A stretch of DNA of 3,781 bases from a plasmid: NCBI RefSeq assembly GCF_054482595.1, contig NZ_JBTHVH010000005.1; one strand, 5' to 3'. Positions 1 to 3,000 of this stretch are shown piece after piece. A program made the position numbers. Position 1 is the first letter of the stretch; the number at the start of each line of letters is the position of its first letter.

Positions 1-3000
1 GCGTTGCCGGTTTTCCATAGGCTCCGCCCCCCTGACAAGCATCACAGAATCGGACGCTCAAATCAGTGGTGGCGAAACCCGACAGGACTTAAAGATACCA
101 GGCGTTTCCCCCTGGTGGCTCCCTCGTGCGCTCTCCTGTTCCTGCCTTTCGGTTTACCGGTGTCATTCCGCTGTTATGGCCGCGTTTATCTCATTCCACG
201 CCTGACACTCAGTTCCGGGTAGGCAGTTCGCTCCAAGCTGGACTGTATGCACGAACCCCCCGTTCAGTCCGACCGCTGCGCCTGTTCCGGTAACTATCGA
301 CTTGAGTCCAACCCGGAAAGACACGACAAAGCGCCACTGGCAGCAGCCATTGGTAACTTGGTTCGCAGATGATTTGTTAGCTAAACACGAGGTTGCTCTT
401 GAAGTGTGCGCATCAGTACGGCTACACTGGAAGGACAGATTTGGTTGCTGTGCTCTGCGAAAGCCAGTTACCACGGTTCAGAAACTTGCCGGTTTACTGA
501 ACCTTCGAAAAAACCACCTTGCCGGGTGGTTTTTTCGTTTTCAGACCAAGAGATTACGGCTGTAACACAAGAATCTCAAGAAGATCTTAAAATATGTGGA
601 AAGGATACAGGCTGATAACAACTTCCTCCATAGACATAATCGAACAAAAAATAAACAAAAAAAATGATTTTAAGAGTTTTCTCACACCTAAATAATAGGT
701 AAAATGTTTTTTATTTGATTGGCTTTTAAAATGAAATATACTAAATCAGCGAAAATATTCATCACAGCTACTTTAATTTTATTTATTTATTTATCCTATA
801 CTTTAATAACTATTGTTGGTATATAAAAATGGAAAGTAATTCACCTGATATTGATTTCATCGAGTTATTTCTCTTTCTTAAGAAAAAAATCGTGAGCATT
901 GTTTTGTTTGTTGTTTTCTCATTGATTTTGTCATCTATTTTCTTGTTGGCAAACAAAAACAAAATAAATATAAATTACGAATTAAATATGATCGCTAATT
1001 CACCAGGTATGATTATTAACTGTGGGGATGACTTTTATTGTAAAGCGAATATTATACAATCAATCATAAACAATAAAAGCAAGTTTATAACATCAAATAT
1101 AGATGAGAGAGGAAAAAAAAATAAACCTGTCATGGGCTGGTGATGACCGTTACAAACCCTTGGTTACCGCTGAAGTAAACGCTATCCATAAAGCTATTAA
1201 TGACTGGTACATCCAAGATTATAAAACTTATAAAAGCATAGTTAACAACCAGGATAGCAACTATATAAATGGCACTGAAACATATGCAAAGGTTGCATTA
1301 TTAACTAAAACAAACACTTCCGGAGAAAGAAACTTTATTTCAATCAATACTGAAATAGTAAATAAAAAGTATAAACCAGCTTTAATTATGACTCTAACAT
1401 TAATTATGGCTATTATCCTTTCCTCCTCGTACCATATAATAAAAAGATCTGTACTTGACTATAAAAATAAGTCAAATGGGTCTTTTTATTAGCCTGTAAC
1501 GATTAATAACCGTATTCAAGCAACATCCGTTACACGCCTGATGCAGAAAAGCCCGCTAATAGCGGGCCTCCCGATAAATCTCACTGGGTGATGCCTCTAA
1601 TTAGTTGAATCTGATGTATAATACGGGCTTTTGAGGTTATCTCATAGCCAGCGTTAATATTCATTGTCCCCGTTGTCAGTTAGCTCGGGTTTACCGCCAT
1701 GGTCAGAACCCTAAAGGCCGTGACAGATTTCGCTGCCGTGACTGCCACCGTGTGTTTCAGCTCACTTATACTTATCAAGCACGTAAGCCGGGTATGAAAG
1801 AGCTGATCACTGAAATGGACTTTAATGATGCCGGGGTTCGCGATACCGCTAGGACACTGAAAATTGGTATTAACACCGTCATCCGGACTTTAAAAAACTC
1901 GCGCCAACGCGAATAACTTCTTCGCCTGTTGCCCATGCTGATGTGGCGCTTATCTGCGAGCTTGATGAACAATGGAGCTACGTTGCCGGCAACACTGGCT
2001 CTGGTACGCGTACAACACCAAAACAGGCGGTGTACTGGCCTACACTTTTGGTCTCCGAACCGATCAAACGTGCCGGGAGCTACTGGCACTGCTTACACCC
2101 TTCAATATCGGCATGCTCACCAGCGATGACTGGGGCAGCTATGGCCGGGTGGTGCCGAAGAATAAGCATCTGACCGGCAAAATATTCCCCCAACGCATCG
2201 AGCGTAATAATCTGACGCTACGCACCCGCATTAAGCGGTTGGCTCGTAAAACAACCAGCTTCTCACGCTCAGTTGAGATCCACAAAAAAGTGATCGGAGC
2301 GTTTATCGAAAAACACATGCTCTACTAATTGGATGCACTACCAGATTCTGAACCGTGGATATATAAGTCTGCATTTCAGCTTCATCAATCCCGTTTTTTT
2401 TACTGAATCCATTTACCAATATCCTGTCCATACGTTACTAAAGAAAATAATATATACGGAATGAGTTATCATGCGCCTAATTTACCATAACATCTGTTGC
2501 GTGCACCGCCGCAGAGGCCCTCAGCGCGTTTCTGACGGGAAACCGGTAAAACAGGCAACAAACCACCCGAAAACCCGCCAGAAACGCGCAGGCTCTGTTT
2601 TTACGGCATGCATGAGTATGCGCGCAAGTGCATAGTGCGGAAATTCACGCCATTCAGCCGGGGTAAGTCCTGTTTCCGATGTTCTTCTTACCCGAAAACG
2701 GTGAACGGGGACGCAATTTATTGCGTGGCCGTGAGGCGTTGCCGGCACAGCCGGAAAAACCGTTTTCAGCACGTTCAGGAAGGGGGGTGGATGTACAAAT
2801 GGTACAGAGGATGGAACTGACGTAAAAGTGACGTATGAGCTGAAGGAATGATGTAAAAGTGATGTATAAATGATGTAAAAGTGATGCAAAAGCGTTGTAA
2901 AAGTGATGTACAGGCCGAAGGAGTGTTGTAAAAGTGTTGTAAAAGTGATGTATGAACTGAAGGAGCGATGTAATTCTGTAGTCAGGAAGAATAACCCGTT

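What the first reader, a model, noticed from the sequence alone, without database searches (positions are those of the whole stretch)
1635..2328. The IS1 copy looks non-autonomous: insA lacks a start codon and insB is frameshifted, yet the A6C frameshift signal and IRs are intact
Seen in sequence: the codon aligned with the canonical insA start is ATA, with no ATG/GTG/TTG in frame until well inside the ORF; InsB similarity switches frame around 1987-1998 (about 10 nt missing relative to canonical IS1 as remembered). Inference: a decaying IS1 relic that could still be mobilised in trans by intact IS1 copies, since its ends are preserved. Alternatively these are lineage-specific features of a very divergent IS1 relative, or sequencing errors.
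Basis: partly seen in the sequence, partly recalled or inferred. Interest (0 to 1): 0.45.

Follow-up and report, generated by a model that had tools for sequence, protein, structure and literature searches.

The report
Dead IS1N copy on small plasmid
The window is a small ColE1-type plasmid carrying a broken copy of the insertion sequence IS1N: a weakened start codon and a 10-base deletion destroy its transposase, which is ordinary decay already flagged as a pseudogene in public annotations.

Summary
The element (1587-2342, 756 bp) belongs to the IS1N branch of the IS1 family. It is about 96% identical to abundant intact 766-bp E. coli copies and about 54% identical to IS1A.

It differs from those intact copies in two ways:
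- The shared insA/insAB' start is ATA instead of ATG (G>A at 1646).
- Exactly 10 nt (GCAGTAAAGC) are missing between 1985 and 1986, which splits the DDE transposase domain across two frames.

The A6C slippery site (1892-1898), the GAGG ribosome-binding site and both terminal inverted repeats are identical to those of intact copies.

Neither lesion is a sequencing error or a lineage-wide feature. The same lesions occur in at least 11 plasmid records and 8 metagenome contigs, and RefSeq annotates the near-identical copies as "IS1 family transposase, frameshifted".

The copy cannot transpose on its own. Mobilisation in trans is mechanistically possible, but I found no evidence for it. The deleted allele occurs in only three flanking contexts, and each context also exists with an undeleted allele. 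No new insertion site turned up in 5,426 E. coli genomes, 72,556 plasmids, JGI metagenomes or IMG/VR.

The lesion seems to move between IS copies by recombination, or to recur. Low interest.

The parts
1587..2342 (+). Whole defective IS1N-type element, 756 bp (intact relatives are 766 bp)
   Evidence: The boundaries are fixed in two ways. One is alignment to intact copies at other loci. The other is an empty site in plasmid pYLMB53b compared with the filled site in p2017.10.01CC_5, which has an 8-bp duplication AGATTCTG. The intact relative's InsAB' clusters at 90% with proteins named 'IS1-like element IS1N family transposase' and is 95% identical in amino acids to S. dysenteriae IS1N. Nucleotide identity to IS1A is 52-54%.
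1587..1609 (+). Left terminal inverted repeat (IRL)
   Evidence: It matches IRR at 17 of 23 positions. It has no difference from the intact chromosomal copies.
2320..2342 (-). Right terminal inverted repeat (IRR)
   Evidence: The only variable site in 2320-2342 among the E. coli copies compared is 2320, which lies inside the insB coding tail. The terminal 22 nt are identical to those of intact copies.
1633..1636 (+). GAGG ribosome-binding site, 7 nt upstream of the start position
   Evidence: Read directly from the sequence. It is conserved in all copies and in IS1A.
1644..1646 (+). Lesion 1: ATA at the shared insA/insAB' start (ATG in intact copies; G>A at 1646)
   Evidence: The ATA variant is present in 15 E. 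coli records and 25 plasmid records.
1644..1916 (+). insA reading frame: 90 codons, uninterrupted, stop at 1914-1916
   Evidence: The translation is. Pfam finds Zn_ribbon_InsA (E=1.9e-18) and HTH_Tnp_IS1 (E=3e-24).
1892..1898 (+). A6C -1 programmed-frameshift motif (AAAAAAC)
   Evidence: It is invariant in the alignment. PGAP annotates a 'programmed frameshift' at this position in intact relatives.
1897..1985 (+). N-terminal part of insB' in the -1 frame, as far as the deletion point. This frame then runs into out-of-frame sequence and stops at 2171-2173.
   Evidence: The virtual -1 fusion matches the intact protein through ...ICELDEQWSYV and then diverges. No DDE_Tnp_IS1 hit remains in this product (protein 2).
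1985..1986 (+). Lesion 2: site of the 10-nt deletion (GCAGTAAAGC lost). It creates the perfect palindrome GTTGCCGGCAAC at 1982-1993.
   Evidence: The junction is found in 10 E. coli records, 11 plasmid records, 9 metagenome contigs and 2 IMG/VR contigs.
1986..2328 (+). Remainder of insB, displaced into a third frame (ORF 1972-2328)
   Evidence: Pfam DDE_Tnp_IS1 model positions 17-131, E=8.4e-60 (protein 3). The ORF is listed.
1585..1586 (.). TG remnant of the left target-site duplication. A 202-nt deletion of flanking plasmid DNA ends here.
   Evidence: Comparison with p2017.10.01CC_5 (L002), which keeps the 202 nt and the full left AGATTCTG.
2343..2350 (.). Right copy of the original 8-bp target duplication, AGATTCTG

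Best explanation
This is a pseudogenised IS1N-type insertion sequence that rides passively on a small ColE1-like plasmid.

**History of the copy.** An intact 766-bp IS1N inserted into the plasmid backbone at AGATTCTG and made an 8-bp duplication. The shared start codon then mutated from ATG to ATA. From published measurements this should cut initiation of both InsA and InsAB' to roughly 1-2%; that figure is an inference for this element. A 202-nt deletion of neighbouring plasmid DNA removed most of the left duplication. Finally a 10-nt deletion inside insB' put the rest of the gene out of frame.

**Effect on the proteins.** A ribosome that makes the -1 slip at A6C now produces InsA (zinc ribbon plus helix-turn-helix) fused to about 30 correct InsB' residues and about 60 out-of-frame residues. 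Nearly all of the DDE catalytic domain is missing, so no transposase can be made and the copy cannot move itself.

**What remains.** The ends, the promoter-proximal region, the ribosome-binding site and the slippery site are unchanged. In principle the copy is still a substrate for IS1N transposase supplied by an intact copy. Because IS1 transposase strongly prefers to act in cis, and no secondary insertion of this allele is found anywhere, it behaves in practice as an immobile relic that persists because the plasmid persists.
For: **Family and the intact reference state**
- NCBIfam transpos_IS1 gives 261 bits against a cutoff of 100.
- Pfam finds three IS1 domains in the intact relative.
- The intact relative's protein sits in a cluster whose members are named IS1N and is 95% identical in amino acids to S. 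dysenteriae IS1N.
- Intact copies occur in 746 of 5,426 E. coli genomes at 80% coverage or better, with up to 44 places per genome. An 8-bp duplication is seen at a chromosomal copy.

**The two lesions**
- RefSeq annotates the near-identical plasmid copies as 'IS1 family transposase, frameshifted' pseudogenes.

**The lesions are real**
- The junction and the ATA recur in independent assemblies from mouse, cattle, human, frog, chicken and surface-water isolates, and in metagenomes.

**Order of events**
- ATA is present in every small-plasmid copy, including the undeleted p2017.10.01CC_5, which keeps the target duplication.
- An empty site exists.
- The 202-nt flank deletion is shown.

**Relaxed constraint (weak evidence)**
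- Substitutions private to the window lineage are mostly non-synonymous (A>D, G>D, P>L, I>T, C>S, E>K), by my reading of the sites listed.

**Strength of an AUA start**
- 1-2% of AUG (10.1101/063800).

**No secondary insertions**
- Every deletion-bearing copy lies in one of three flank contexts.
Against: - ATA is accepted as a start by NCBI table 11 and by PGAP, so the InsA frame may still be expressed at a low level from a multicopy plasmid. The copy may therefore not be entirely inert.
- Nothing here measures expression or transposition.
- The host of the window is unknown, so I cannot say whether a helper IS1N is present.
- The same 10-nt deletion at two or three loci could be read as evidence that the deleted copy has moved, although each of those loci also has an undeleted allele at the identical site.
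Confidence: 0.85

Rival explanations
1. The defective copy is an active non-autonomous element. It is regularly mobilised in trans by intact IS1N copies, or by IS1A, and spreads as a MITE-like parasite of the transposase.
For: - The ends are identical to those of intact copies.
- IS1 transposase can mobilise immobile IS1 copies and a mini-IS1 in trans (PMC12903888).
- The deletion allele is present in three flank contexts: the small plasmids, an IncY-plasmid locus and the eutA-murI chromosomal locus.
Against: - Each of the three contexts also exists with an undeleted allele at exactly the same site: L002 for the small plasmids, RHB16 for the IncY locus, and most of the 119 genomes that carry the element at eutA-murI (58 of the 60 records listed cover the full query in one piece, so they are undeleted). 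The insertions therefore predate the deletion.
- No new site appeared in 5,426 E. coli genomes, 72,556 plasmids, JGI metagenomes, IMG/VR or the GTDB representative genomes.
- The window copy has no target duplication.
- Trans action is about 25-fold weaker than cis even with constitutive transposase.
Confidence: 0.07
2. The two differences are sequencing or assembly errors in this record, and the real element is intact.
For: The window does carry one suspicious homopolymer difference elsewhere: A9 at 1113-1121 against A8 in its closest relatives. The record may therefore contain some errors.
Against: - The identical ATA and the identical 10-nt junction occur in at least 11 independently assembled plasmids and 8 metagenome contigs.
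- A 10-nt loss in non-repetitive sequence is not a typical sequencing error.
Confidence: 0.01
3. These are normal features of a divergent but functional IS1 lineage, meaning the reader's remembered IS1A alignment does not apply here.
For: - The element is only about 54% identical in nucleotides to IS1A, so direct comparison with IS1A is risky.
- PGAP treats ATA-start copies with an intact insB as functional.
Against: - The nearest relatives, at 96% identity, have ATG and the extra 10 nt, and they encode an uninterrupted DDE_Tnp_IS1 domain.
- The window's -1 product has no DDE hit.
Confidence: 0.02
4. The copy is retained because it still does something for the plasmid or the host. For example, low-level InsA, or the truncated InsA-InsB' fusion, made from a multicopy plasmid could repress IS1N transposition in trans.
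For: - The insA frame is uninterrupted and both of its DNA-binding domains score well.
- The ribosome-binding site is intact.
- AUA gives about 1-2% initiation, and plasmid copy number could partly compensate.
- InsA is a known repressor of IS1; a 16.8-fold transcriptional effect is reported in PMC12903888.
Against: - There is no test of expression.
- InsA in the window lineage has accumulated non-conservative changes (S>L, A>D, G>D) by my reading of the sites, which suggests relaxed constraint.
- Related plasmids exist without the IS or with it truncated at nucleotide 242.
Confidence: 0.05

Closest known systems
IS1N (iso-IS1 of Shigella dysenteriae; the 'IS1-like element IS1N family' of NCBI)
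   Same: - The same sub-lineage. Intact E. coli relatives are 96% identical in nucleotides to the window copy.
- Their InsAB' is 95% identical to S. dysenteriae IS1N and sits in the same 90% cluster.
- The same IRs, GAGG site, A6C motif and insA/insB' layout.
   Different: - The window copy is 756 bp rather than 766 bp.
- Its start codon is ATA rather than ATG.
- The 10-nt deletion splits the DDE domain.
- It has no target-site duplication.
IS1A / canonical IS1 of E. coli K-12
   Same: - The same family architecture: terminal repeats of about 23 bp starting GGTGATGC, insA followed by insB' in the -1 frame, an A6C slippery site, and the same three Pfam domains.
   Different: - Only 52-54% nucleotide identity.
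- The IRs match at about 15 of 23 positions (my count from the alignment), so cross-recognition by IS1A transposase is untested.
Non-consensus, immobile IS1 copies of E. coli K-12 (IS1B, C, D, F), mobilised only by over-produced InsAB' (PMC12903888)
   Same: Copies with usable ends that do not move on their own and depend on transposase supplied in trans.
   Different: - The K-12 copies keep full-length reading frames and differ only by point substitutions.
- The window copy has a frame-destroying deletion and a crippled start.
- No experiment has been done on it.
RefSeq pseudogene annotation on near-identical plasmids (e.g. NZ_CP070933.1 p30COLEC-3, NZ_CP010227.1, NZ_CP145713.1)
   Same: The IS copy is 99.6-99.9% identical and sits in the same plasmid context. 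It is annotated 'IS1 family transposase; frameshifted'.
   Different: - The window has one private substitution (G>A at 1828).
- It also has an extra A in the homopolymer of the neighbouring GNVR gene.

Membership tests
IS1 family (IS1N subgroup) | Imperfect terminal inverted repeats of about 23 bp beginning GGTGATG | tested here: met
   IRL and IRR match at 17 of 23 positions and are identical to those of intact IS1N-type copies.
IS1 family (IS1N subgroup) | InsA with an N-terminal zinc ribbon and a C-terminal helix-turn-helix | tested here: met
   Pfam Zn_ribbon_InsA E=1.9e-18 and HTH_Tnp_IS1 E=3e-24 on the window translation.
IS1 family (IS1N subgroup) | A6C -1 programmed frameshift joining insA to insB' | tested here: met
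   AAAAAAC at 1892-1898 lies in the same register as in intact copies that PGAP annotates with a programmed frameshift.
IS1 family (IS1N subgroup) | Continuous InsAB' carrying a complete DDE_Tnp_IS1 domain | tested here: not met
   The domain is split. The -1 fusion has no DDE hit, and model positions 17-131 lie in another frame. The copy is a member by descent but is not a functional member.
IS1 family (IS1N subgroup) | Canonical start codon for insA/insAB' | tested here: not met
   ATA at 1644-1646, against ATG in intact copies. ATA is a weak near-cognate start.
IS1 family (IS1N subgroup) | 8-9 bp target-site duplication | tested here: not met
   The window flanks are ...CTCACTG and AGATTCTG.... 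The related plasmid L002 has the 8-bp duplication AGATTCTG, and the window lost its left copy through a 202-nt deletion.
Non-autonomous element mobilised in trans (MITE-like behaviour) | Intact transposase-binding ends | tested here: met
   The ends are identical to those of intact copies.
Non-autonomous element mobilised in trans (MITE-like behaviour) | Copies of the defective variant at several independent sites, each with its own target duplication | tested here: not met
   There are only three flank contexts, and each also exists with an undeleted allele. None has a target duplication specific to the deleted form.
Non-autonomous element mobilised in trans (MITE-like behaviour) | A helper copy producing transposase in the same cell | not testable with these tools
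   The window is the plasmid alone and its host genome is unknown. Intact IS1N-type copies occur in about 14% of complete E. coli genomes.

The most novel reading that the evidence does not exclude
The dead allele does not spread by transposition. It spreads by homologous recombination (gene conversion) from the multicopy small plasmid into intact IS1N copies elsewhere in the cell. A plasmid-borne pseudogene would then progressively inactivate chromosomal and large-plasmid IS copies. In addition, its residual InsA may damp IS1N activity.

Supporting facts:
- In strain S1-CAM-01-A the chromosomal eutA-murI copy is 100% identical to the co-resident plasmid copy over 1729-2198. That stretch includes the deletion and a private T at 1789. 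The copy keeps the locus-typical bases at 6 sites to the left and 7 sites to the right.
- The deletion also sits in an IncY phage-plasmid locus in at least 4 records, while other records of the same locus are undeleted.

The evidence does not exclude two other readings:
- The S1-CAM mosaic may be a short-read polishing artefact, because its boundaries lie about one read length from each IS end.
- The deletion may recur through a template switch that creates the GTTGCCGGCAAC palindrome.
Probability: 0.25. Interest if true: 0.4.

Novelty: already known. Interest (0 to 1): 0.12.

Why it matters
It matters little by itself. Decayed IS copies are common, and this one is already flagged as a frameshifted pseudogene on near-identical RefSeq plasmids.

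It has three practical uses:
- The 10-nt junction and the ATA are clean markers for a widespread family of 3.7-5.1 kb ColE1-like plasmids in E. coli and Salmonella.
- The case shows that 'intact ends plus dead transposase' does not by itself imply trans-mobilisation, since a database-wide junction search found no secondary insertions.
- The mosaic IS1N copies show either real gene conversion between plasmid and chromosomal IS copies or a polishing artefact. People who compare IS alleles in hybrid assemblies should be aware of both possibilities.

Tried and rejected
- **Naming the element from the literature.** Searches for 'IS1N' and 'iso-IS1' returned only false positives or irrelevant papers. 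The name came instead from the source names of members of the protein's 90% cluster.
- **Promoter scan.** The scan of 1480-2420 gave only one promoter-like match on the minus strand, at chance level. It says nothing useful about PIRL.
- **blastn of the element against K-12 IS1A.** No hit at E<1e-5. A global MAFFT alignment was needed.
- **IS1-mediated adjacent deletion as the cause of the missing left duplication.** Rejected, because the 202-nt deletion ends 2 nt outside IRL and leaves TG, rather than ending exactly at the IS terminus.
- **The three contexts of the deletion as proof of transposition.** Rejected, because undeleted alleles exist at the same sites.
- **Direct-repeat slippage as the cause of the 10-nt deletion.** Rejected, because the placement of the deletion is unique and there is no microhomology (my reading of the alignment).
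- **Metagenome contig L022.** It joins the IncY-locus left flank to the eutA-murI right flank across the IS. I treated it as an assembly chimera, not as a new site.
- **GTDB representative genomes.** The scan for the junction found nothing.
- **Two Python calls.** They printed unusably long output because a pattern search failed. They were redone.
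Full report
**What the window is.** The 3,781-nt window is a complete small ColE1-type plasmid.
- It has a pBR322-like origin at about 1-560.
- An AT-rich GNVR-domain gene lies at 829-1492.
- An IS1-family element follows it.
- An 11-nt repeat array lies at about 2849-2952.

The window's closest relatives are 3.7-5.1 kb plasmids of E. coli and Salmonella. The 801-nt query window:1560-2360 matches them at 99.6-99.9% identity, flanks included.

**Checking the observation.** The element runs from 1587 to 2342 (756 bp). 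Two lines of evidence fix these boundaries.
- The first is alignment to copies at unrelated loci.
- The second is a filled site compared with an empty site. Plasmid p2017.10.01CC_5 (L002) has the element flanked by an 8-bp duplication AGATTCTG. Plasmid pYLMB53b (L016) has the uninterrupted target ...GCATGAAGATTCAGAACCGTGG....

- The codon at the insA start position is ATA (1644-1646). It lies 7 nt after GAGG and just after an in-frame TGA.
- The next canonical in-frame start is GTG at 1752.
- The slippery motif TTTAAAAAAC is at 1889-1898.
- The insB similarity changes frame at 1985|1986, where intact relatives carry 10 more bases, GCAGTAAAGC.
- Both inverted repeats are identical to those of intact copies.

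**What it is.** The closest intact relatives are 766-bp elements, about 96% identical to the window copy.
- They occur at 80% coverage or better in 746 of 5,426 complete E. coli genomes, with up to 44 places per genome.
- They are also found on plasmids of Klebsiella, Enterobacter, Citrobacter, Shigella and Salmonella.
- PGAP annotates them as 'IS1 family transposase, programmed frameshift'.
- Their 231-aa InsAB' scores 261 bits on NCBIfam transpos_IS1 and carries Zn_ribbon_InsA, HTH_Tnp_IS1 and a complete DDE_Tnp_IS1 domain.
- That protein lies in a 90%-identity cluster whose members are named 'IS1-like element IS1N family transposase' and 'iso-IS1N insA'. It is 95% identical to a Shigella dysenteriae IS1N protein.
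- Against K-12 IS1A the nucleotide identity is only 52-54%.

The window element is therefore a copy of IS1N, the strongly divergent iso-IS1, and not of canonical IS1.

**Consequences of the two lesions.** The G>A change at 1646 turns the ATG shared by InsA and InsAB' into ATA.
- ATA is on NCBI's table-11 start list, and PGAP accepts it for copies whose insB is intact.
- Measured initiation from AUA in E. coli is about 1-2% of AUG (bioRxiv 10.1101/063800).
- This lesion is therefore a strong down-mutation and not a null.

The 10-nt deletion is the lethal lesion.
- After the -1 slip the fusion reads correctly through ...ICELDEQWSYV. It then continues out of frame for about 60 codons to a stop at 2171-2173.
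- Pfam finds no DDE domain in that product. DDE_Tnp_IS1 model positions 17-131 lie in the third frame, in ORF 1972-2328.
- No transposase can be made, which is an inference from the sequence.
- RefSeq reaches the same conclusion for the near-identical plasmid copies: 'IS1 family transposase; frameshifted'.

**Not errors and not lineage features.**
- A 48-mer spanning the deletion junction was designed so that a 28-mer seed must cross the junction. It hits 10 E. coli records and 11 plasmid records, including two Salmonella plasmids.
- A 31-mer across the junction hits 9 metagenome contigs and 2 IMG/VR contigs.
- The ATA variant, tested the same way, is in 15 E. coli records and 25 plasmid records.
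- Independent recurrence rules out sequencing error. The intact state of the 96%-identical relatives rules out a lineage-wide peculiarity.

**History on this plasmid.**
- All small-plasmid copies have ATA, including L002, which keeps the intact insB and the target duplication. ATA therefore came before the 10-nt deletion.
- The window lineage also lacks 202 nt of plasmid DNA immediately left of the element. This loss leaves only TG (1585-1586) of the left duplication.
- Because that deletion stops 2 nt outside IRL, I do not read it as an IS1-mediated adjacent deletion.
- Substitutions private to the window lineage are mostly non-synonymous, which fits relaxed constraint. This is my reading of the sites and the numbers are small.

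**Is it mobilised in trans?** Published experiments show that IS1 InsAB' can act in trans on immobile IS1 copies and on a mini-IS1. They also show it does so about 25-fold less efficiently than in cis, and that immobile copies moved only with over-produced transposase (PMC12903888).

The databases give it no support. Deletion-bearing copies occur in only three flank contexts.
- **(a) The small plasmids.** These account for all the plasmid hits except the two large plasmids listed under (b), and for 8 of the 9 metagenome contigs.
- **(b) An IncY phage-plasmid locus.** It is seen in ATCC 98082, TOK-001 and two IMG/VR contigs.
- **(c) The chromosomal eutA-murI locus of one strain, S1-CAM-01-A**.

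Each context also exists with an undeleted allele at the identical site.
- For (a) it is L002.
- For (b) it is pRHB16-C13_3.
- For (c) it is most of the 119 genomes that carry the element at that locus.

The insertions therefore predate the deletion at no fewer than two of the three loci, and the deletion did not arrive there by transposition. The ninth metagenome contig (L022) joins the IncY left flank to the eutA-murI right flank. I take it to be an assembly chimera through the repeat.

**How the same deletion came to be at several loci.**
- **Direct-repeat slippage.** The deletion has no flanking microhomology, so this is unlikely (my reading of the alignment).
- **The S1-CAM-01-A mosaic.** The chromosomal copy is identical to the co-resident plasmid copy (L021) from 1729 to 2198. 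That stretch includes the deletion, a private T at 1789, and about 16 sites at which the plasmid type differs from the eutA-murI type (the deletion counted as one of them). The same copy carries the locus-typical bases at 6 sites on the left and 7 on the right.
- **What the mosaic meets.** It meets the criteria used elsewhere for gene conversion in E. coli: clustered differences with a perfect donor in the same genome (PMC4444293).
- **Caveat.** The tract boundaries lie 142-175 nt from the left end of the IS and 144-155 nt from the right end, which is about one short-read length. Short-read polishing dominated by reads from the multicopy plasmid would give the same picture, and I cannot tell the two apart without the reads.
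- **The IncY-locus allele.** It keeps private bases (A1706, C1936) close to the deletion in four independent records, so it is real. It needs either a short conversion tract or an independent occurrence.
- **A possible independent origin.** The deletion creates the perfect palindrome GTTGCCGGCAAC (1982-1993). A template switch anchored on the CCGG could in principle generate it repeatedly. That is my speculation and is untested.
- **Wider mosaicism.** Other copies also look recombinant. The D72 copy at eutA-murI is of the L002 type, and pCRECTL20-3 has an ATA-type 5' end on an 84%-divergent body.

**Verdict.** The 'decaying relic' interpretation is correct, and the two benign alternatives are refuted. 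The suggestion of trans-mobilisation remains an untested possibility with negative database evidence. This is an ordinary pseudogenised IS1N copy, already annotated as such on near-identical records, so interest is low. The only mildly interesting by-product is the apparent transfer of the dead allele between IS copies by recombination, which needs read-level confirmation.

Noticed in passing
window 1113-1121 (inside the GNVR-domain gene, 829-1492): The window has a run of 9 A. Its closest relatives (L001, L008, L021) have 8. The extra A splits the roughly 220-codon GNVR/Wzz-like membrane-protein gene into ORFs 829-1143 and 1103-1492. It could be homopolymer slippage (phase variation) or a homopolymer sequencing error.
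   Followed up: partly
L003 1503-2258 (E. coli S1-CAM-01-A chromosome, eutA-murI locus) compared with L021 58-813 (co-resident plasmid): The chromosomal IS1N copy is a mosaic. Its central 470 bp are identical to the plasmid copy, including the 10-nt deletion and a private T at window position 1789. Both ends are of the locus type. This is either gene conversion from plasmid to chromosome or a short-read polishing artefact, because the boundaries lie about 145-175 nt from each IS end.
   Followed up: yes
window 1982-1993: The 10-nt deletion creates a perfect 12-nt palindrome, GTTGCCGGCAAC, centred on CCGG. It has no flanking direct repeat. A template-switch origin could make it recurrent. This was not tested.
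   Followed up: no
window 2849-2973: An array of about 9.6 copies of an 11-nt unit, TGATGTAAAAG, with a 42-nt higher-order period. The related plasmid p6-S1-CAM-01-A has a different repeat (AGTAGTAA-like) at the equivalent place. It may be an iteron-like or protein-binding array of the plasmid backbone.
   Followed up: no
L012 1465-2230 (E. coli D72 chromosome, eutA-murI locus): About 119 genomes carry an IS1N copy at this locus. The D72 copy alone is of the small-plasmid (p2017.10.01CC_5) type over nearly its whole length, ATA start included. This suggests replacement of the resident copy by recombination.
   Followed up: partly
L010 4531-4771 and L013 1700-1940: In 5.3-kb and 3.8-kb relatives of the plasmid, the ATA-type IS1N copy is cut off after nucleotide 242. 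It abuts a different, intact IS1-family element in the opposite orientation, so one IS is rearranged by another IS.
   Followed up: no
L022 (metagenome contig OGJZ01002549.1) 8866-9621: A deletion-bearing IS1N copy is flanked on the left by the IncY-plasmid locus and on the right by the chromosomal eutA-murI locus. This is most likely an assembly chimera through the repeat, and it is a warning about reading flanks of IS copies in metagenome contigs.
   Followed up: partly
window 1899-1913: A short GC-rich hairpin, TCGCG-CCAA-CGCGA, lies directly after the A6C slippery site. The scan reported it as terminator-like on the minus strand. Its stem is weakened by C>A at 1908 in the abundant intact copies, so it is probably not a conserved frameshift stimulator.
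   Followed up: no
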